From Mobula hypostoma (taxonomy: Eukaryota): a stretch of DNA of 64,000 bases. Under the pieces are notes generated by a model. The model was not told the origin of the DNA. It did not search any database and worked only from the letters and a program-made list of their open reading frames with translations. The translations under genes were made by a program, and so were the position numbers. The DNA lies in assembly GCF_963921235.1 (NCBI RefSeq), contig NC_086097.1, positions 7,130,001-7,194,000 on the forward strand, in the 5' to 3' direction. Below, piece by piece: positions 1 through 21,489 of this stretch (the stretch's first letter is position 1; every line of letters starts with the position of its first letter).

Positions 1-1408
1 GCATGAGTATTCACCCCCTTCAAGTCAGTATTTTGTAGATGCACCTTTGGTGGAAATAACAACCTTGAGACTGTGTGGATAGGTCTCTATCAGCTTTGCA
101 CATCTGGACGCTGCAATTTTTCCCATTCTTCTTTACAAAACTGTTCAGGCTCTGTCAGACAGCTTGGGGATCATGGATGAACAGCCTTTTTCAAATCCAG
201 CCACAAATTCTCAATTGGATTGAGGTCTGAATTTTGACTTAGCTACCGCAGGACATTAACTTTGAAGTTTTTAAGCCATTCTCCTGTAGCTTTAGCCTTA
301 TGCTTGGGGTCATTGTCTAGAAAACAAATCTCCCAAGTCACATTTTTCTTGCAGACTGCATCAGGCTTTCCTCCAGGATTTCCCTGTATTTTGCTGCATT
401 CTTTTTACTCTCAGCTTTCACAAGCCTTCCAGGGACTGTTGCAGTGAAGCATCCCCACAGCATGATGCAGCCAACACAGTGCTTCATGGAAGGGATGGTG
501 TGTTTTTGATGATGTTCAGTTTTTGGCTTACACCAAACATAGCCTTTAGTCTGATGGCCAAAGAGCTCAATTTTGGTTTCAACAGACCATAGAACCTTCT
601 TCCAGCTGATTTCAGAGTCTCCCACATGCCTTCTGGCAAGCTCTAGCTGAGATTTCATGTGAGCTTTTTTCAAAGGTGGCTTTGTTTTTGCCACTGTTCC
701 ATAAGGCACCGACTGGTGAAACAGCTGGGCAACCTTTGTCGTATGTGCAGTTGTTCGAATCTCAGCCACTGAAGCTTGTAACTCCTCCAGAATTGTCATA
801 TTGTTTTTGTGGCCTCCCTCACTAGTGTCCTTCTTGCAAGGTTTTTGAGGACCACCTGCTCTGGGCAGATTTACAGCTGTGTCATATTCTTTCCATTTCT
901 TGATGATTGACTTAACTGTACTCCAAGAGATATTCAGTGACTTGGAAATTTTTTTGTATCTATCTCCTGACTTGTGCTTTTCAATAACCTTTTCACAGAG
1001 TTGCTTGGAGTTTTCTTTTGTTTTCATAGTGCAGTTTTTGCTAGGGTACTGACCGACCAGCAGCTGGACCTTCCAGATACCTGTGTATTTTTACTACAAT
1101 CGATTGAAACACCTTGATCGCACTTACTGATCTCCATTTACCTAATTATGTGACTTCTCAAACCAGTGATGATTTGGTGTGTCATATTAAAGGGGGTGAA
1201 TACTTATGCAATCAATTATTTTGTGTTTTATATTTATAATTAATTTAGATCACTTTGTACAGATTTATTTTCACTTTAACATGAAAGAGTCTTTTTCTGT
1301 TTAGTGTCAAAAAAGCCAAATTAAATCCATTGTGATTCAATGTTGTAAAACAATAGAACATGAAAACTTCCAGGGGGGTGGGGAAGGTGAATATTTTTAT
1401 AGGCACTG
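1..1408 (-). mobile_element. Tc1/mariner DNA transposon (IR/DR type), defective; left TIR runs off the window
   Basis: Transposase ORF 338..1027(-) has the Tc1 HTH region and WSVETKIELF / MLWGCF motifs. The remainder is frameshifted (DNDPKH...SDLNPIENLW near 190-320). 1-18 GCATGAGTATTCACCCCC is the inverted copy of 1192-1209. The outer repeat ends ...GGCACTG at 1408. Confidence 0.92.
338..1027 (-). pseudogene. Tc1-like DD34E transposase, truncated by stop/frameshift; first catalytic Asp replaced (WSVETK)
   Basis: Translated ORF track; the canonical motif is WSDETK. Confidence 0.88.
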
Positions 1409-2179: not shown

Positions 2180-2708
2180 ATGGTGTTTGTCCATTGTATC
2201 CAATGATGACAGGAAATCTGTGCAGCAGAGGTTTTAAACTAGGAAAACCATTGCACTGGGGCAATTTCACTCTCTCAATCTTGGAAGTCCAGGTCCAGAG
2301 GTACAAACAAGTGTCACAAACTGGAGTCTTCTTAGGTTGCAGTGGATGACCATGAGGTCTTCTATTCCTTGTCATGTCCTTTGCTCCCGCACAGTATTGC
2401 AGAACTGTTTTCCTGGCCGTTGGATCTCGCTGTAGATCTCATTCTCTGAGTCCACCAGAGCTGACTTCACATGCTAGGACAGGCATGTCCCTATCTTACC
2501 GGGGTACGATACATGCTGGTTACCCTCACCTGGTTTGATCTGGCTGTTGGGGTTCTGTTCTGGGGTGTAGCTGTTGTCACATGCAAACAGCTACTTGGAG
2601 CCACAGGTGAGAGCTGAGTATACGGTGGGGACCAAAGGTGAGCCAGCTGCTTCAGTTTGGACATGACAAGCCCCTACATCAGAGGCACTACCCCTCCCCG
2701 AACACCCC
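2180..2708 (-). mobile_element. Older, diverged copy of the RTE-derived non-autonomous element at 9745-10310
   Basis: Shares blocks TACCCTCACCTGGTTT, GGGGTGT, CATGCAAACAGCTAC, GGAGCCACAGGTGAGAGCTGAGT, GGTGGGGACCAAAGGTG and terminal ACACCCC with 10115-10310. A similar tail lies near 2185-2210. Confidence 0.75.
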
Positions 2709-2759
2709 AAGAACATAAGCAAATTACAGCCCACGGAGGCTGGAAAGAATCAGAATCCG

Positions 2760-9525: not shown

Positions 9526-9744
9526 ACATTAGTTATTGCAGTTACCTGCTTCAAACTTAGAACATAGATCAGTACAGCACAGCACATGAACCAGGCTTTT
9601 GGCCCACAATGTTGTGCTGAACTAATTAAATTAGTAATCAAATGGCTAATTAAAATAATCTCTTCTGCCAAAACAATGTCTATATCTCCTTATTTTCCTC
9701 ACATTTATGTGCCTATGTAAACACCTCTTAAAAGTCTTTAATGT

Positions 9745-10310
9745 TGTTGTTGTTCATCCATCGTTGACATCGATGAGGACCTGGACACCATTATGATGGT
9801 GCCAAGACTAGCGCGTGATCTGGATTTAAGTGAGGGAGAGTTGCGCAGCGTCAGCCTGACTCTCTCTTCCCAATTCCCATCTGGATCCAGTGGCAAGACA
9901 GAGTCTAGACGGCTGGAGATGGGACTAGGCGCAGTGGATGACTGGGACATCTTCTGTGTCTTGTCCTGCTCTACACGTTCCACGACGCTTGCAGAGACCG
10001 CCTTCTTGACCGTTGGACCTTCCATAGGTCTCGTCCGCTCAATCCGCCGGAGTCTGTCTTCACATGCTGGGATAGACAACTCCCTATCTCACCGAGGGTT
10101 TGAGACCCGTCGGCTACCCTCACCTGGTTTAGCCGGCTTGTCGAAGCCGTTGCCCGGGGTGTGGCCGCTGTCGCATGCAAACAGCTACGGGGAGCCACAG
10201 GTGAGAGCTGAGTGCCAGGTGGGGACCAAAGGTGGACTAACCACCCTGAAAAGGATGCGACATGTTCCCCCACCAGAGGTGCTACCCCTCCCTGACACCC
10301 CATACACCCC
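9745..10310 (-). mobile_element. Non-autonomous RTE-derived bipartite retroelement (RTE-like 5' UTR + RTE-like 3' tail), relatively young
   Basis: (CAA)n tail; its 3' end resembles the RTE tail at 29761-29830. CpG-rich. Candidate TSD AATGT (9740-9744 and 10311-10315). No tRNA A/B box and no RT ORF. Confidence 0.8.
10117..10310 (-). ncRNA. Putative HDV-like self-cleaving ribozyme at the 5' end of the RTE-derived element
   Basis: Manual fold on the minus strand: P1 GGGGUGU/ACACCCC, P2 CUCUCACCUG/CAGGUGAGGG, P3 GGC/GCC, L3 UCCCCGU plus an inserted hairpin, P1.1 GG, GCAA, P4 CGGCUU/AAGCCG, J4/2 GCUAA. Confidence 0.72.
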
Positions 10311-10509
10311 AATGTACCTACTTGTTTTATAACAGCTTGTTTGGCAGAGTAAAGCCTGAAATATGAGTTCGTGTAAGGCTGGCCTGCTGTTACAGAGGAT
10401 GTAGCAGATATAATGAAAATGAAAGTTATTTTCATCTTCAGGCAGTCCAGAGGTGGGGTATGTGGTGATGAGGCTGCAATGACTTGAGTAGAAAGATGGT
10501 GGTCTTGTG

Positions 10510-16475: not shown

Positions 16476-17662
16476 AAAGGGCAGACTCCTTGGAGTTTAG
16501 TGGAATGAGGAATGATAATATTGAAACAGAAAAGGAGGCATGTTAGAGTAGATGTAAAGAGGTTTACATCAGTGCGAGCATCCCAATCTCAAACAAGGGA
16601 AGATAGTTACAAGTGGAAGGGATGAGCATTAAATACTGAGAAGCACAGGGATTTCCTTTAGGGGATGGTGACCCTCTACAACTCTCTACTTTGAAACGTT
16701 ATAGAAACTGGATCTCCCCTGGTGCGCGTTCGTAAGACTGGACTCAAGTGTGGATGAACAGCAGGCTCTCTCCCTGTTATGACAGTCACTGGCACGGCTC
16801 AACACTGAGAGCGGCAGATGGCAAGCTCTCGACTTGACCCAGGAGTGCTGGACGGCAGAATCCTCATGAAGAGACTTCAGGCAAGAGGTTAGGCATAGGA
16901 ACACCAAGACAGTCTCGGAGGGATGACGGAGCAACATCACAAGACCAATCATTCTCTATAACACAGTAGGACTCTACTAAAGAGGTAACTAGAGACCCCT
17001 TTAAATAATCATAGAATACAGGAAACCCATACCAGTCACAATTAACTTGATAAGATTAAACCGACAGCACAAGGGCTTAATGGCTCTCGTTATGATAACA
17101 GTTAGTAAATACAGGTGTTCGAGAAACCTGGAAGCCCAATGCTCTACAGCTCGCTGCATAGGCCCACAGGCTCATGACAGGATCACTGGAAGTATTTAAA
17201 GAAAAGGAAGATCAATATTTAATGATCACTGTAATCTCTATCTTAACTTTATCCACGTCCTTTGAATCCCTATTATCACCTGGCAAAAACCTATCCACTA
17301 TTCTACAAGAGATAAGATGTGCTGGAACGTGGGACAACACACTGGAAGAGTTCAGCAGGTCAGGCAGCATCTCTGGTCAGTATGCAGTTTGCATGAAGGG
17401 TCTCAGCCTGAAGTGCCTAACCTGCTTGCTGAGCCCCTCCAGTGTTTTGTGTGTTACGATTCTTTGGCTTGACTTCAATTGCCTTCTGAAGGAGAATTCC
17501 AGAACCTCAGTCTCCTTTGTCCAACATTACTGACTGAATGACATCTCAAATCTAATTCTACATTCCTGTTTTATGAGGTGGAAATGAGCAAGGCCAACAG
17601 GGCTTGGGTGAAGCTTTATTGGCTGATCCCCTGTACGGTGGATACAATGGATTGCAGAAACA

Positions 17663-20600
17663 TTGACATTGGGTGGGAATCAAATTAAAGAGGCTAGGTG
17701 TGAGGAGGTTAGTTCACAACAGAGGGATGGGAACCAGTGCAGAGAGACAGAGGGGTGTAAAGTGAGCGTAGAAGCAAAAAGTACAAAGGGGAAAAGTAAA
17801 AGTGGCAGGCCGACAAATCCAGGGCAAGCATTAAAAAGGGCTAAGAGAGTTGTAAAAGAGCGCCTGAAGGCTTTATGTGTCAATGCAAGGAGCATTCGTA
17901 ATAAGGTGGATGAATTGAAAGTGCAGATTGTTATTAATGATTATGATATAGTTGGGATCACAGAGACATGGCTCCAGGGTGACCAGGGATGGGAGCTCAA
18001 CATTCAGGGATATTCAATATTCAGGAGGGATAGACATGAAGGAAGGGGAGGTGGGGTGGCGTTGCTGGTTAAAGAAGAGATTAACGCAATAGAAAGGAAG
18101 GACATAAGCCGGGAAGATGTGGAATCGATATGTGTAGAGCTGCGTAACACTAAGGGGCAGAAGACGCTGGTGGGAGTTGTGTACAGGCCACCTAACAGTA
18201 GTAGTGAGGTCGGAGATGGTATTAAACAGGAAATTAGAAATGTGTGCAATAAAGGAACAGCAGTTATAATGGGTGACTTCAATCTACATGTAGACTGGGT
18301 GAACCAAATTGGTAAAGGTGCTGAGGAAGAGGATTTCTTGGAATGTATGCGGGATGGTTTTTTGAACCAACATGTCGAGGAACCGACTAGAGAGCAGGCT
18401 ATTCTGGACTGGGTTTTGAGCAATGAGGAAGGGTTAATTAGCGATCTTGTCGTGAGAGGCCCCTTGGGTAAGAGTGACCATAATATGGTGGAATTCTTCA
18501 TTAACATGGAGAGTGACATAGTTAATTCAGAAACAAAGGTTCTGAACTTAAAGAGGGGTAACTTTGAAGGTATGAGTCGTGAATTAGCTAAGATAGACTG
18601 GCAAATGACACTTAAAGGATTGACGGTGGATATGCAATGGCAGGCATTTAAAGGTTGCATGGATGAACTACAACAATTGTTCATCCCAGTTTGGCAAAAG
18701 AATAAATCAAGGAAGGTAGTGCACCCGTGGCTGACAAGAGAAATTAGGGATAGTATCAATTCCAAAGAAGTAGCATACAAATTAGCCAGAGAAAGTGGCT
18801 CACCTGAGGACTGGGAGAAATTCAGAGTTCAGCAGAGGAGGACAAAGGGCTTAATTAGGAAGGGGAAAAAAGATTATGAGAGAAAACTGGCAGAGAACAT
18901 AAAAATGGACTGTAAAAGCTTTTATAGATATGTAAAAAGGAAAAGACTGATAAAGACAAATGTAGGTCCCCTGCAGACAGAAACAGGTGAATTGATTATG
19001 GGGAGCAAGGACATGGCAGACCAATTGAATAATTACTTTGGTTCTGTCTTCACTAAGGAGGACATAAATAATCTTCCAGAAATAGTAAGGGACAGAGGGT
19101 CCAGTGAGATGGAGGAACTGAGTGAAATACATGTTAGTAGGGAAGTGGTGTTAGGTAAATTGAAGGGATTGAAGGCAGATAAATCCCCAGGGCCAGATGG
19201 TCTGCATCCTAGAGTGCTTAAGGAAGTAGCCCAAGAAATAGTGGATGCATTAGTGATAATTTTTCAAAACTCGTTAGATTCTGGACTAGTTCCTGAGGAT
19301 TGGAGGGTGGCTAATGTAACCCCACTTTTTAAAAAAGGAGGGAGAGAGAAACCGGGGAATTATAGGCCGGTTAGCCTAACGTCGGTGGTGGGGAAACTGC
19401 TGGAGTCAGTTATCAAGGATGTGATAACAGCACATTTGGAAAGCGGTGAAATGATCGGACAAAGTCAGCATGGATTTGTGAAAGGAAAATCATGTCTGAC
19501 GAATCTCATAGAATTTTTTGAGGATGTAACTAGTAGAGTGGATAGGGGAGAACCAGTGGATGTGGTATATTTGGATTTTCAAAAGGCTTTTGACAAGGTC
19601 CCACGCAGGAGATTAGTGTGCAAACTTAAAGCACACGGTATTGGGGGTAAGGTATTGGTGTGGGTGGAGAATTGGTTAGCAGACAGGAAGCAAAGAGTGG
19701 GAATAAACGGGACCTTTTCAGAATGGCAGGCGGTGACTAGTGGGGTACCGCAAGGCTCAGTGCTGGGACCCCAGTTGTTTACAATATATATTAATGACTT
19801 GGATGAGGGAATTAAATGCAGCATCTCCAAGTTTGCGGATGACACGAAGCTGGGTGGCAGTGTTAGCAGTGAGGAGGATGCTAAGAGGATGCAGGGTGAC
19901 TTGGATAGGTTGGGTGAGTGGGCAAACTCATGGCAGATGCAATTTAATGTGGATAAATGTGAAGTTGTCCACTTTGGTGGCAAAAATAGGAAAACAGATT
20001 ATTATCTGAATGGTGGCCAATTAGGAAAAGGGGAGGTGCAACGAGACCTGGGTGTCATTATACACCAGTCATTGAAAGTGGGCATGCAGGTACAGCAGGC
20101 GGTGAAAAAGGCGAACGGTATGCTGGCATTTATAGCGAGAGGATTTGAGTACAGGAGCAGGGAGGTACTACTGCAGTTGTACAAGGCCTTGGTGAGACCA
20201 CACCTGGAGTATTGTGTGCAGTTTTGGTCCCCTAATCTGAGGAAAGACATCTTTGCCATAGAGGGAGTACAAAGAAGGTTCACCAGATTGATTCCTGGGA
20301 TGGCAGGTCTTTCATATGAAGAAAGACTGGATGAACTGGGCTTGTACTCGTTGGAATTTAGAAGATTGAGGGGGGATCTGATTGAAACGTATAAGATCCT
20401 AAAGGGATTGGACAGGCTAGATGCGGGAAGATTGTTCCCGATTTTGGGGAGGTCCAGAACGAGGGGTCACAGTTTGAGGATAGAGGGGAAGCCTTTTAGG
20501 ACCGAGATTAGGAAAAACTTCTTCACACAGAGAGTGGTGAATCTGTGGAATTCTCTGCCACAGCAAACTGTTGAGGCCGGTTCATTGGCTGTGTTTAAGA

Positions 20601-20665
20601 GGAAGTTAGATATGGCCCTTGTGGCTACAGGGGTCAGGGGGTATGGAGGGAAGGCTGGGTTCTGA
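17663..20665 (+). CDS. CR1 ORF2p: APE endonuclease + reverse transcriptase (about 1000 open codons; the tracked start is TTG, not ATG)
   Basis: APE motifs NARS, GITETW, VYRPP, MGDFN and SDH. RT motifs NYRPVSLTS, YLDFQKAFDKV, GVPQGSVLGP, KFADD and DLGV. Confidence 0.93.
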   Translation: MTLGGNQIKEARCEEVSSQQRDGNQCRETEGCKVSVEAKSTKGKSKSGRPTNPGQALKRAKRVVKERLKALCVNARSIRNKVDELKVQIVINDYDIVGITETWLQGDQGWELNIQGYSIFRRDRHEGRGGGVALLVKEEINAIERKDISREDVESICVELRNTKGQKTLVGVVYRPPNSSSEVGDGIKQEIRNVCNKGTAVIMGDFNLHVDWVNQIGKGAEEEDFLECMRDGFLNQHVEEPTREQAILDWVLSNEEGLISDLVVRGPLGKSDHNMVEFFINMESDIVNSETKVLNLKRGNFEGMSRELAKIDWQMTLKGLTVDMQWQAFKGCMDELQQLFIPVWQKNKSRKVVHPWLTREIRDSINSKEVAYKLARESGSPEDWEKFRVQQRRTKGLIRKGKKDYERKLAENIKMDCKSFYRYVKRKRLIKTNVGPLQTETGELIMGSKDMADQLNNYFGSVFTKEDINNLPEIVRDRGSSEMEELSEIHVSREVVLGKLKGLKADKSPGPDGLHPRVLKEVAQEIVDALVIIFQNSLDSGLVPEDWRVANVTPLFKKGGREKPGNYRPVSLTSVVGKLLESVIKDVITAHLESGEMIGQSQHGFVKGKSCLTNLIEFFEDVTSRVDRGEPVDVVYLDFQKAFDKVPRRRLVCKLKAHGIGGKVLVWVENWLADRKQRVGINGTFSEWQAVTSGVPQGSVLGPQLFTIYINDLDEGIKCSISKFADDTKLGGSVSSEEDAKRMQGDLDRLGEWANSWQMQFNVDKCEVVHFGGKNRKTDYYLNGGQLGKGEVQRDLGVIIHQSLKVGMQVQQAVKKANGMLAFIARGFEYRSREVLLQLYKALVRPHLEYCVQFWSPNLRKDIFAIEGVQRRFTRLIPGMAGLSYEERLDELGLYSLEFRRLRGDLIETYKILKGLDRLDAGRLFPILGRSRTRGHSLRIEGKPFRTEIRKNFFTQRVVNLWNSLPQQTVEAGSLAVFKRKLDMALVATGVRGYGGKAGF

Positions 20666-20762
20666 GTTGGATGATCAGCCATGATCATAATAAATGGCGG
20701 TGCAGGCTCGAAGGGCCGAATGGCCTACTCCTGCACCTATTTTCTATGTTTCTATGTTTCTA
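17664..20762 (+). mobile_element. Young 5'-truncated CR1 LINE (ORF2 + 3' UTR, no ORF1)
   Basis: Uninterrupted ORF2 frame, (TTTCTATG)n tail at 20741-20762, candidate TSD AAACAT (17658-17663 and 20763-20768). Confidence 0.95.
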
Positions 20763-21489
20763 AAACATCATTCGCCTATGCTCTACTGGGAGCTGAGGGC
20801 CCACAAAGTAGTCAAATCAAGTCAAGTTTATTGTTATTTAACTATATACATGTACTGTATACCATCAAATGAGACAACGTTTCTCCGAACCAGAGTATAA
20901 ACCACAGTGGTACACATAACACACAATAACTTCAGAAAGTAGGGACAAAACATACAGATGAATTTCACATAAACAAAGTGCAAAAATTCAATATTGTCAG
21001 GTACAGAACAGATTAACCTGTGACACTGGCAAGCATGACCAAAGTAGTGAATCTCTCAAAATAATTTCTCCTAGCACCACTATTTTATAAGGATCACAAT
21101 TCTGTTGAAGACGGACTGAATGGTAAAACTCTAAATTCACTTTCTCATCTTGTGATGACTTTATTAGAGGAGATAGTTTCTCATCCTACTCAATCTTTCA
21201 AATCTTTTCAACATCCCTATTACTCCATTAGATGCTCAACTCTTTATAAGTTCTTTCTCTGTAGTTTAACAAACAGAAAGTGCATTTCACTGAAAAAAAC
21301 GATGATAATGATAGCCAGGAATTCTTTCCCAAAAGTCGACCAGTTTATTTACATTGTCTGTTACGACTCATTATATCATTCCTGTTCTCCAGCTGAAAAC
21401 ACAGCCAAATTTTCTACACTGATTTTATTTACTAAATAAGCAGCCCATCACGGCATTTTAGGTGGGAAAGAAAAACTGGTCATTACTTG

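What the first reader, a model, noticed from the sequence alone, without database searches (positions are those of the whole stretch)
9745..10310. Ribozyme-headed non-coding retroelement: HDV-like fold with an extra hairpin inserted in L3
Seen: on the minus strand the element starts with GGGGUGU (twice, at 10310 and 10301), which pairs with ACACCCC (10162-10156). That strand is followed directly by GG-GCAA-CGGCUU(CGAC)AAGCCG-GCUAA and then CAGGUGAGGG, which pairs with upstream CUCUCACCUG. P3 is GGC/GCC and the loop starts UCCCCGU. Established: this is the P1/P1.1/P2/P3/P4 nested double pseudoknot of HDV-like ribozymes, with the catalytic C at 10132, and such ribozymes occur in the 5' UTRs of R2 and RTE retrotransposons. 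Unusual: a GCUGU...ACAGC hairpin sits inside L3, J1/2 is about 90 nt with its own stem (GGUGGGG/CCCCACC), and the element has no ORF and no Pol III promoter. Inference: a short retroelement that cuts itself out of host read-through transcripts and borrows the RTE machinery, analogous to R2-derived short internally deleted elements.
Basis: partly seen in the sequence, partly recalled or inferred. Interest (0 to 1): 0.82.

Follow-up and report, generated by a model that had tools for sequence, protein, structure and literature searches.

The report
Self-cutting RNA heads a jumping element
A roughly 565-base non-coding jumping element, present in thousands of copies, starts with what looks like a hepatitis-delta-type self-cutting RNA carrying an unusual extra hairpin, which could trim the element's own front end so it needs no promoter.

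Summary
On the minus strand, 10310 to about 9745 is one copy of a young repeat family. A 23-nt ribozyme motif has 2,895 exact matches genome-wide, and about 80% of a listed sample are this subfamily. Copies have target-site duplications, varied 5' truncations, a T|A nick site and (CAA)n/(CAAC)n tails. In a 3'-anchored sample, 10 of 29 copies start exactly at the first G of GGGGTGT. The first 194 nt can form every HDV-type helix and carry the core motifs: L3 UCCCCGU, P1.1 GG and the J4/2 C at 10132. Two older subfamilies keep P1, P2 and P3 unchanged, swap one P4 pair (G-C to C-G), change pairs in the J1/2 domain compensatorily, and keep the extra L3 hairpin. An RNA-seq contig from another species ends exactly at G1, directly followed by sequencing adapter. 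Against this: Rfam models miss it, G1 pairs with C rather than U, and no cleavage was tested. No LINE partner was found. All three subfamilies are short, so "internally deleted RTE derivative" is unsupported. Verdict: a probably active, structurally unusual HDV-like ribozyme heading a SINE-like lineage; a new variant of a known kind.

The parts
9745..10310 (-). One full-length copy of the roughly 565-nt non-autonomous retroelement (young subfamily). The 3' limit is ambiguous by a few bases because the short flanking duplication (ACATT) overlaps the tail.
10304..10310 (-). P1 5' strand GGGGUGU. The predicted cleavage site is immediately 5' of G at 10310.
10208..10303 (-). J1/2 peripheral domain (element positions 8-103). 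Its basal helix is 10291-10300 with 10210-10219 and uses the second GGGGUGU repeat. Inner helices show compensatory changes.
   Evidence: PMC4908430
10198..10207 (-). P2 5' strand CUCUCACCUG
10187..10196 (-). P3 5' strand GGC (10194-10196) and L3 UCCCCGU (10187-10193). The two C at 10191-10192 are the P1.1 partners.
   Evidence: PMC5035012
10166..10186 (-). Extra hairpin inside L3: stem GCUGU/ACAGC, loop UUGCAUGCG with the palindrome GCAUGC. It is kept in all three subfamilies.
10154..10165 (-). P3 3' strand GCC (10163-10165), P1 3' strand ACACCCC (10156-10162), P1.1 GG (10154-10155)
10134..10149 (-). P4 hairpin CGGCUU-CGAC-AAGCCG. One pair is flipped G-C to C-G in the older subfamilies.
10132..10132 (-). 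C at the position of the catalytic cytosine (J4/2, in GCUAA)
   Evidence: PMC13635239 for the role of C75
10117..10126 (-). P2 3' strand CAGGUGAGGG
9756..9806 (-). Two 3' stem-loops (9781-9806, weakened by three private substitutions in this copy; 9756-9780). Presumed recognition element for the reverse transcriptase that copies the RNA.
9742..9755 (-). (CAA)n tail. Other copies carry (CAA)n or (CAAC)n.
2185..2712 (-). A second, decayed copy from the older subfamily B. It begins at the second GGGGTGT repeat and has L3 UCCAAGU.

Best explanation
The element is a member of a SINE-like, protein-less non-LTR retroelement lineage. Its RNA begins with an HDV-type self-cleaving ribozyme (element positions 1-194). 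Inferred mechanism: copies lying in transcribed DNA are read through from outside. The ribozyme folds into P1, a structured J1/2 'P1.2' domain, P2, P3 with an extra helix in L3, P1.1 and P4. It then cuts immediately 5' of G1 (10310). This gives the RNA a defined 5' end without a promoter of its own. Two 3' stem-loops and a (CAA)n/(CAAC)n tail are then used in trans by an unidentified LINE reverse transcriptase-endonuclease. That enzyme nicks at T|A and copies the RNA by target-primed reverse transcription. Shown here: the family structure, the insertion hallmarks, the clustering of 5' ends at G1, the match to the HDV core, the conservation pattern across subfamilies and an RNA-library fragment end at G1. 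Inferred: catalysis itself, read-through as the source of transcripts, and the identity of the enzyme.
For: (1) Family: 3,305 first-look candidates, and the 40 scored are 96-100% identical. The 23-nt L3-plus-hairpin motif has 2,895 exact matches; in my hand count of the 100 listed rows, 81 are young-subfamily type and 19 older-subfamily type. (2) Retroposition hallmarks: 41 of 57 analysed copies have a flanking duplication of 7-13 nt (median 10), with T at -1 in 34 of 41 and A at +1 in 35 of 41. In the 3'-anchored sample of 29 copies, 10 start at position 1, 7 more within the first 9 nt, and 12 are truncated at scattered points (71 to 403), each with its own duplication where checked. (3) Ribozyme fit: all helices are present in the right order. 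The strict descriptor is unique to the element. An Rfam HDV model aligns CCCC-GGGCAAC-P4-GGCUAA, though weakly. L3 UCCCCGU is one base from the UCCUCGU inside the most conserved R2 ribozyme string (PMC5035012, passage). (4) Conservation: between the majority sequences of the three subfamilies there are 0 of 7 differences in P1 5' and 0 of 10 in P2 5', against 17-19 of 96 in J1/2. (5) Covariation on 22 sequences: 89.7% of cells are paired against 37-49% when partners are slid. There are 39 cells changed on both sides against 19.7 +/- 3.9 in shuffles (0 of 500 reach it). The informative pairs are in P4 (GC 9, CG 6, UG 3), two J1/2 helices (GC 12/AU 7; CG 8/UA 8) and the L3 hairpin (GC 13, AU 4, GU 3). 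(6) RNA: in a true RNA-seq run of another species, a contig about 90% identical over 10082-10311 runs straight from G1 into GATCGGAAGAGCGTCG, which I recognise from memory as Illumina adapter. Of its 24 differences, the 19 listed lie mostly in J1/2, and the four in the rest keep pairing or lie in loops. (7) The J1/2 basal helix sits 3 nt after P1 and 2 nt before P2, as the activating P1.2 helix does in PMC4908430.
Against: No cleavage was measured. Rfam finds nothing at gathering thresholds. The only HDV match is 13.2 bits (E 1.8 in 111 nt) against a cut-off of 44. The minimum-free-energy fold is no better than shuffles (z -0.43). G1 pairs with C, not with the U of the cleavage-site wobble known from HDV. 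L3 is interrupted by a 21-nt hairpin, a variation I found described in no paper I could search. P1, P2, P3 and P1.1 show no covariation, only conservation. The older copies were picked through an exact 22-nt anchor covering J4/2 and P2 3', so the constancy of that stretch is by selection. The counts come from three related subfamilies, so only about four or five independent events lie behind them. The L3-hairpin change involves a CpG site and may be decay. Six of 30 young copies have GGGGTAT, which puts an A-C mismatch in P1. Five of the 24 differences in the other species' contig are not listed and could lie in the core. Contigs are weak evidence for RNA ends, and a transcription start at G1 would give the same end. 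The partner enzyme is unknown.
Confidence: 0.68

Rival explanations
1. The HDV-like fold is a relic. The L3 hairpin and the G1-C pair have inactivated catalysis, and the uniform 5' end comes from transcription starting at G1 from an internal promoter. The conserved 5' region then serves as promoter or as a protein-binding site.
For: The L3 insertion and the missing G.U wobble are departures from the canonical core. Rfam models fail. L1Tc shows that one 5' segment can be both promoter and ribozyme (PMC3383444, abstract in the search listing). A start site would also explain the 5'-end clustering and the adapter junction.
Against: The pattern of constraint follows the ribozyme map. P1, P2, P3, P1.1, the L3 U, CC and G and the J4/2 C are kept, J1.1/4 and the J1/2 interior are free, and P4 and J1/2 helices change by compensation. 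No tRNA, 7SL or 5S type head is present. A relic would not be expected to keep a 7-bp P1 over three subfamilies that differ by about 20-25% elsewhere.
Confidence: 0.2
2. It is a short internally deleted derivative of an autonomous RTE-type LINE that carries the same ribozyme and 3' end.
For: HDV-like ribozymes head RTE, Baggins, R2 and L1Tc elements (PMC6765202 and PMC7761336, passages). Deletion derivatives of R2 exist (PMC3414825, abstract in the search listing). The microsatellite-type tail and 3' stem-loops are of the kind stringent LINEs use (established knowledge, recalled).
Against: 30 of 30 loci found by the 3' 96 nt are the short element. Exhaustive exact-pattern scans for the 3' hairpins or the last 18 nt joined to a different upstream gave 5 hits (all indel copies), 0 and 0, while the positive control gave 331. 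Of the 100 listed of 208 places that hold the ribozyme's 3' part but differ downstream, the non-young ones I read (20 fetched, plus 3 extended) are older short subfamilies or copies broken by other insertions. Proteins matching the internal frame are all 72-282 aa, none a LINE ORF. A parent could still exist with ends that differ by a few bases, or only in other species. 108 of the 208 places were not listed.
Confidence: 0.1
3. The pairing scheme is a chance reading of a GC-rich 5' region with no RNA-level function at all.
For: The pairing-only descriptor is common in background (48 hits in 126.7 kb). The fold energy is not significant.
Against: The strict descriptor gives 0 hits in 392 kb and 0 of 3000 shuffles. 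The fold sits exactly at the element's first base. There are compensatory changes in P4 and J1/2, and the 5' part is better conserved than the interior between species.
Confidence: 0.02

Closest known systems
R2 SIDEs (short internally deleted elements of R2) in Drosophila (PMC3414825; I saw only the abstract in the search listing)
   Same: Non-autonomous, protein-less elements that keep a 5' HDV-like ribozyme for 5'-end formation and a 3' end used by a LINE enzyme in trans.
   Different: SIDEs sit in 28S rDNA and have a known parent. This lineage inserts genome-wide at T|A, has thousands of copies and three subfamilies that are all short, and no parent was found.
NARTc / L1Tc of Trypanosoma cruzi (PMC3383444 and PMC3185411, abstracts in the search listing)
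   Same: A dispersed non-autonomous element shares an HDV-like ribozyme at its very 5' end with LINE-type elements. The ribozyme frees the RNA from co-transcripts.
   Different: That ribozyme is a compact 77 nt that doubles as a promoter, in a protist, with a known autonomous partner. Here it is a 194-nt ribozyme with a J1/2 domain and an L3 helix, in a 3.5-Gb animal-type genome.
Large HDV-like ribozymes with a J1/2 'P1.2' peripheral domain, e.g. the Agam-2 ribozyme (PMC4908430, abstract and passages)
   Same: A helix in J1/2 starts right after P1 and ends right before P2. In that work it accelerates cleavage by nearly three orders of magnitude.
   Different: No extra helix inside L3 appears in the passages I read. 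Activity here is untested.
[quoted passage not shown] 2011 not held, known to me only through these citations)
   Same: Position at the first nucleotide of the element; P1 of 6-7 bp; P2 of at least 5 bp; variable P4 and J1/2; the L3 motif.
   Different: Those elements encode their own RT. Here there is no coding capacity, and L3 carries a 21-nt hairpin.
Pol III SINEs (tRNA-, 7SL- or 5S-headed) with LINE-derived tails
   Same: Short, high-copy, dependent on a LINE enzyme, with 3' stem-loop and repeat tail, 5' truncations and target duplications.
   Different: No Pol III-type head. The head is a ribozyme fold instead.

Membership tests
HDV-like self-cleaving ribozymes | Nested double pseudoknot with strands in the order P1, P2, P3, P3', P1', P1.1, P4, P4', P2' | tested here: met
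   P1 7 bp, P2 10 bp (one G.U), P3 3 bp, P1.1 2 bp, P4 6 bp, read. 89.7% of cells are paired over 22 sequences.
HDV-like self-cleaving ribozymes | Cytosine in J4/2 at the position of the general acid (C75) | tested here: met
   C at 10132 in GCUAA, invariant in alignment A1. It aligns to GGCUAA of the Rfam HDV-F-prausnitzii model. Its role is not tested.
HDV-like self-cleaving ribozymes | L3 with 5' U, CC for P1.1, and the G that forms the reverse wobble with that U | tested here: met
   L3 is UCCCCGU (young), UCCAAGU or UCCAWGU (older subfamilies). U, CC and G are kept. Compare UCCUCGU within CCUCCUCGUGG (PMC5035012) and G25.U20 (PMC13635239).
HDV-like self-cleaving ribozymes | Short uninterrupted L3 closing directly onto P3' | tested here: not met
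   A 21-nt hairpin (10166-10186) lies between the L3 motif and P3' and is conserved in all subfamilies.
HDV-like self-cleaving ribozymes | G.U wobble at the cleavage site (first pair of P1), as in HDV | tested here: not met
   G1 pairs with C at 10156. The feature is known to me from HDV (title of Chen et al. 2009 in the reference list of PMC13635239). Whether it is universal in the family is recalled as 'no', not checked.
HDV-like self-cleaving ribozymes | Match to a curated covariance model at its gathering score | tested here: not met
   No hit at gathering on the window. No HDV hit at E<=10 on 901 nt. 13.2 bits against 44 on 111 nt. The long J1/2 and the L3 insert are likely causes.
HDV-like self-cleaving ribozymes | Covariation supporting the helices | tested here: inconclusive
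   P4, J1/2 helices and the L3 hairpin have compensatory changes. P1, P2, P3 and P1.1 never covary; they are simply conserved. There are few independent events.
HDV-like self-cleaving ribozymes | Site-specific self-cleavage 5' of G1 leaving a 5' hydroxyl | not testable with these tools
   There are only indirect hints: copy 5' ends at G1 and an adapter junction at G1 in an RNA-seq contig.
Non-LTR retroelement copied by target-primed reverse transcription | Target-site duplications, variable 5' truncation, defined 3' end with repeat tail | tested here: met
Short internally deleted element (SIDE) of an autonomous LINE | An autonomous parent sharing both the 5' and 3' ends | tested here: not met
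   None was found. The older subfamilies are equally short. The search was by exact anchors and top-scoring hits, so a diverged parent is not excluded.
RTE-dependent element | 3' end shared with an RTE-clade LINE of the same genome | not tested
   I had no RTE query sequence, and no RTE was seen in the window. The attribution remains a guess.
Pol III SINE | tRNA-, 7SL- or 5S-derived head with internal promoter | tested here: not met
   No tRNA and no Rfam match of that kind.

The most novel reading that the evidence does not exclude
This would be a new structural subclass of HDV-like ribozyme in which L3 is split by a stable, sequence-conserved helix whose loop holds the palindrome GCAUGC, and which is nevertheless active or even needs that helix. 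It would head a promoter-less, SINE-like retroelement lineage of an animal genome that has lasted through at least three subfamilies and several species, without any autonomous relative sharing its ends. The 5' end of a high-copy animal 'SINE' would then be made by RNA self-cleavage rather than by Pol III initiation.
Probability: 0.45. Interest if true: 0.7.

Novelty: new variant of a known kind. Interest (0 to 1): 0.6.

Why it matters
Ribozyme-headed LINEs and a few non-autonomous derivatives are known. A dispersed lineage of thousands of copies with several subfamilies, in a large animal genome, would be different. If it relies only on a self-cleaving head and a borrowed enzyme, promoter-independent 'SINE' life styles are not confined to rDNA specialists or trypanosomes. 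The conserved helix inside L3 would widen the accepted architecture of HDV-like ribozymes. It would also explain why structure-descriptor and covariance-model searches miss such cases, so many more may be hidden in repeat libraries. [quoted passage not shown]

Tried and rejected
1. Rfam at gathering and at E<=10 found no usable HDV hit, only a chance miRNA match and one weak partial HDV match.
2. Minimum-free-energy folding was not significant.
3. The hunt for an autonomous partner failed by every route:
- 3'-end query.
- RVT_1 family search. This found an unrelated young L1-type LINE, L061.
- Protein searches with the internal frame found only short spurious ORFs over related copies.
- Exact-pattern scans with 'not-this-base' codes at presumed junctions.
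- Three candidate loci turned out to be copies broken by other insertions or simply decayed: L062, L086, L087.
4. A scan for a subfamily with a different P1' returned mostly chance matches to its 11-nt anchor and no new subfamily.
5. Sense ORF: 92 codons from an ATG at element position 286, running into the tail without a stop, with no Pfam family. The ATG is absent in the older subfamilies, so I take the ORF as fortuitous.
6. The antisense frame is open over the whole element (186 codons), but 53 of 5000 shuffles do as well, so I do not claim it.
7. The runs labelled 'RNA?' (X15, X16) are guesses and are kept as contigs. Their depth is not evidence of expression. No table of molecule starts was produced for contigs.
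8. Earlier notes of this scan held nothing on this genome or sequence.
9. Ruminski et al. 2011 and Webb et al. 2009 are not held. What they say about L3 variants, SINE-like carriers or vertebrate cases, including their supplements, could bear on novelty.

Full report
**The sequence.**
On the minus strand the element runs from 10310 to about 9745. I number it from G at 10310, so element position = 10311 minus window coordinate.
- GGGGUGU at positions 1-7 and again at 10-16.
- CUCUCACCUG at 104-113, then GGC at 115-117 and UCCCCGU at 118-124.
- A hairpin GCUGU-UUGCAUGCG-ACAGC at 126-144, then GCC at 146-148.
- ACACCCC at 149-155, GG at 156-157, GCAA, then the hairpin CGGCUU-CGAC-AAGCCG at 162-177.
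- GCUAAAC with its C at position 179 (window 10132), and CAGGUGAGGG at 185-194.

This is the strand order of an HDV-type double pseudoknot. The window copy differs from the family majority in the ribozyme part only at positions 55 and 68. These two positions pair with each other in the J1/2 domain (G-C to A-U).

**It is a repeat family made by retroposition.**
- A search of the window's own 3.48-Gb assembly gave 3,305 first-look candidates. All 40 that were scored are 96-100% identical and begin within a few bases of 10310.
- In an alignment of 30 copies with flanks, the shared sequence starts at the first GGGGTGT and flanking duplications abut it. Copies end in (CAA)n or (CAAC)n.
- To avoid bias towards full-length copies I searched with the last 96 nt only. 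Of those 29 further loci:
  - 10 begin at position 1, 2 at position 2, 1 at 4, 2 at 5 and 2 at 9.
  - 12 are truncated at scattered points: 71, 71, 72, 112, 124, 156, 189, 225, 241, 247, 401 and 403.
  - The truncated ones I inspected have their own duplications.
- Of 57 distinct copies, 41 gave a duplication of 7-13 nt (median 10). T precedes it in 34 of 41 and A is its first base in 35 of 41. The A may be partly an artefact of tails ending in A; the T is not.
- An exhaustive exact-pattern scan for the 23-nt motif covering L3 and the hairpin found 2,895 places. In my hand count of the 100 listed rows, 81 are of the young type (CC, or its C-to-T decay forms) and 19 of the older types.

**Is the ribozyme reading more than chance?**
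- Pairing alone is not. A descriptor asking only for the helices, with J1/2 up to 120 nt and an L3 insert up to 30 nt, hit 48 places in 126.7 kb of window background.
- The core nucleotides make the difference. I required U-CC-..-G in L3, GG for P1.1 and C-N-A-A in J4/2. These choices are partly recalled from HDV and partly backed by PMC13635239, PMC3774820 and PMC5035012.
- That stricter descriptor hit nothing in 392 kb of background and in 0 of 3000 dinucleotide shuffles, while the element still hit with either GGGGUGU repeat. It was written after I had seen the candidate.
- Rfam finds nothing at gathering score and nothing relevant at E<=10 on 901 nt.
- On 111 nt, the HDV-F-prausnitzii model aligns CCCC-GGGCAAC-P4-GGCUAA at 13.2 bits, far below its cut-off of 44.
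- The minimum-free-energy fold is not better than shuffles (z -0.43). However, the centroid keeps P2, P4 and a long J1/2 hairpin whose basal helix (11-20 with 92-101) uses the second GGGGUGU repeat.
- That basal helix begins 3 nt after P1 and ends 2 nt before P2. This is the place of the 'P1.2' helix shown to activate large HDV-like ribozymes (PMC4908430, abstract and passages).

**Older relatives in the same genome.**
- A pattern made of the 22 nt covering J4/2 and P2 3', with 'not-this-base' codes 100 nt downstream, found 208 places.
- About half of the 100 listed are not the young family. They fall into two diverged groups, which I call B and C.
- I fetched 20 of these and extended three.
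- B and C are homologous to the young family over their whole length (74-81% identity over the aligned parts). They are equally short and end in a related terminal hairpin and ...GGACAACCA(AC) tail.
- Their copies also begin at or within two bases of GGGGTGT.
- A decayed B copy lies in the window itself at about 2185-2712, minus strand.

So the whole lineage is non-autonomous, and the young family is not a recent one-off deletion product.

**Pattern of constraint.**
- Differences between the majority sequences of the three groups:
  - P1 5': 0 of 7.
  - P2 5': 0 of 10.
  - P3', P1' and P1.1: 0-1 of 12.
  - J1/2: 17-19 of 96.
  - J1.1/4: 2-3 of 4.
  - The two middle L3 positions are CC, AA or AW.
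- The stretch used as anchor is constant by selection and says nothing.
- I counted pairs on an alignment of 9 young, 8 B and 5 C ribozymes against the full pseudoknotted structure:
  - 89.7% of cells pair, against 37-49% when partners are slid.
  - 39 cells change on both sides, against 19.7 +/- 3.9 in shuffles (0 of 500 reach it).
  - The covariation score is 0.133 against 0.111 (0 of 500).
- The informative pairs are:
  - One P4 pair flipped by two transversions (GC 9, CG 6, UG 3).
  - Two pairs in J1/2 helices (GC 12/AU 7; CG 8/UA 8).
  - The outer pair of the L3 hairpin (GC 13, AU 4, GU 3).
- The L3-hairpin change involves a CpG site, so decay is an alternative explanation.
- P1, P2, P3 and P1.1 never covary.
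- The sequences are three related groups, so these counts stand for perhaps four or five events.

**RNA.**
- Runs of at least six species labels hold 46-81% of the sampled words of the stretch. All runs are kept as contigs.
- When laid, depth stops at 10312 in all four runs.
- In the one clearly transcriptomic run with a usable contig (X20, another species), a 253-nt contig matches 10082-10311 with 24 differences and 3 gaps. It continues beyond the element's first base with GATCGGAAGAGCGTCG.
- I recognise that string from memory as the Illumina adapter. The base at 10311 fits the adapter's preceding A, so the insert ends at G1.
- An adapter junction assembled into a contig means many fragments ended at that base. 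This fits a native RNA 5' end at G1.
- It cannot distinguish cleavage from transcription initiation, and it is a single contig.
- Of the 24 differences, 19 are listed: 15 in J1/2 and 4 elsewhere. Two of those four turn standard pairs into G.U wobbles (a P4 U-A and the hairpin's G-C) and two lie in the P4 loop. The other 5 are not shown.
- A second contig of that run shows the element's interior to be more diverged than its ribozyme part.

**Coding capacity and head type.**
- The window copy has a 95-codon sense ORF.
- In the majority sequence, a 92-codon frame from an ATG at position 286 runs into the tail without a stop.
- It has no Pfam family. It matches only 72-282-aa spurious ORFs over related copies in two protein collections. 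Its ATG is absent in B and C.
- The antisense strand is open over the whole element, but 53 of 5000 shuffles do as well.
- There is no tRNA and no Pol III-type RNA family.

In substance, the element is non-coding and lacks a classical SINE head.

**The partner.**
I could not find it.
- The window's only LINE ORF (17627-20665, endonuclease plus RT) ends in a CR1-type (TTTCTATG)n tail.
- The best-scoring RT family genome-wide is a young L1-type element with poly(A), unrelated in sequence.
- Exact scans for the 3' hairpins or the last 18 nt joined to a different upstream gave 5 indel copies, 0 and 0. The matching positive control gave 331.
- The T|A nick site points to an AP-type endonuclease of low specificity. 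The RTE attribution is untested.

**Comparison with what is known.**
- HDV-like ribozymes at the first base of R2, RTE, Baggins and L1Tc elements free the RNA from co-transcripts (PMC3774820, PMC6765202, PMC7761336; passages).
- J1/2 can be 23 to over 700 nt (PMC3774820), and a J1/2 helix can activate cleavage (PMC4908430).
- Non-autonomous carriers are known: R2 SIDEs and NARTc (abstracts seen).
- What I did not find in five literature searches is an HDV-like ribozyme with a helix inside L3, or a dispersed, multi-subfamily, ribozyme-headed short element in a vertebrate-type genome. The two key papers are not held, so this is absence in what I could read, not proof.

**Verdict.**
The best reading, at about 0.68, is a functional HDV-like ribozyme of unusual architecture. 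It has a G1-C pair, a P1.2 domain and a conserved helix in L3. It defines the 5' end of a SINE-like retroelement lineage with an unknown LINE partner.

Noticed in passing
window 17627-20665 (+), tail near 20735-20765: An apparently intact 1012-codon LINE ORF with endonuclease and reverse-transcriptase domains. It is followed by a 3' end with (TTTCTATG)n repeats of the CR1 type and is unrelated to the finding.
   Followed up: partly
window 2185-2712 (-): A decayed copy of the older subfamily B of the same ribozyme-headed element. It starts at the second GGGGTGT repeat and has L3 UCCAAGU.
   Followed up: partly
window 10166-10186 (-): The loop of the L3 hairpin holds the 6-nt palindrome GCAUGC and is conserved in sequence in all three subfamilies. 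A loop-loop (kissing) contact between two RNAs is conceivable but untested.
   Followed up: no
window 9742-10332 (+), antisense to the element: The antisense strand is open over the whole element (186 codons in the family majority). 53 of 5000 dinucleotide shuffles do as well, so this is probably composition.
   Followed up: yes
window 10301-10310 (-) and copies L002, L007, L008, L019, L022, L029: Six of 30 young copies have GGGGTAT in the first repeat (an A-C mismatch in P1) with no compensating change. A few copies start at the second repeat (positions 8-10). Use of the second repeat as an alternative P1 is possible.
   Followed up: partly
L061 (G000:C1:196466200-196472500): A very young, abundant L1-type LINE: ORF1 of 254 codons, ORF2 of 1264 codons, poly(A). 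All 150 scored RVT_1 matches are at about 157-160 bits, and many have open frames above 1000 codons.
   Followed up: partly
G000:C5:123956833-124177658 (one search list): Eight near-identical subfamily-B-like copies on one strand, spaced 20-35 kb apart. They probably ride inside a tandemly duplicated segment.
   Followed up: no
window 338-1090 (-): A 250-codon open frame with Sleeping Beauty / Tc1-type transposase HTH domains (a DNA transposon remnant).
   Followed up: no
window 9600-9720: The flank just 3' of the element is itself a high-copy repeat. Its depth is in the hundreds to thousands in the laid runs, unlike the 5' flank, which has none.
   Followed up: no
L062 and G000:C1:183629112-183629237: Two copies of the young element are interrupted at the same position (about 230) by the same unrelated repeat of roughly 1.1 kb. 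This is either a duplicated locus or a preferred insertion site.
   Followed up: partly
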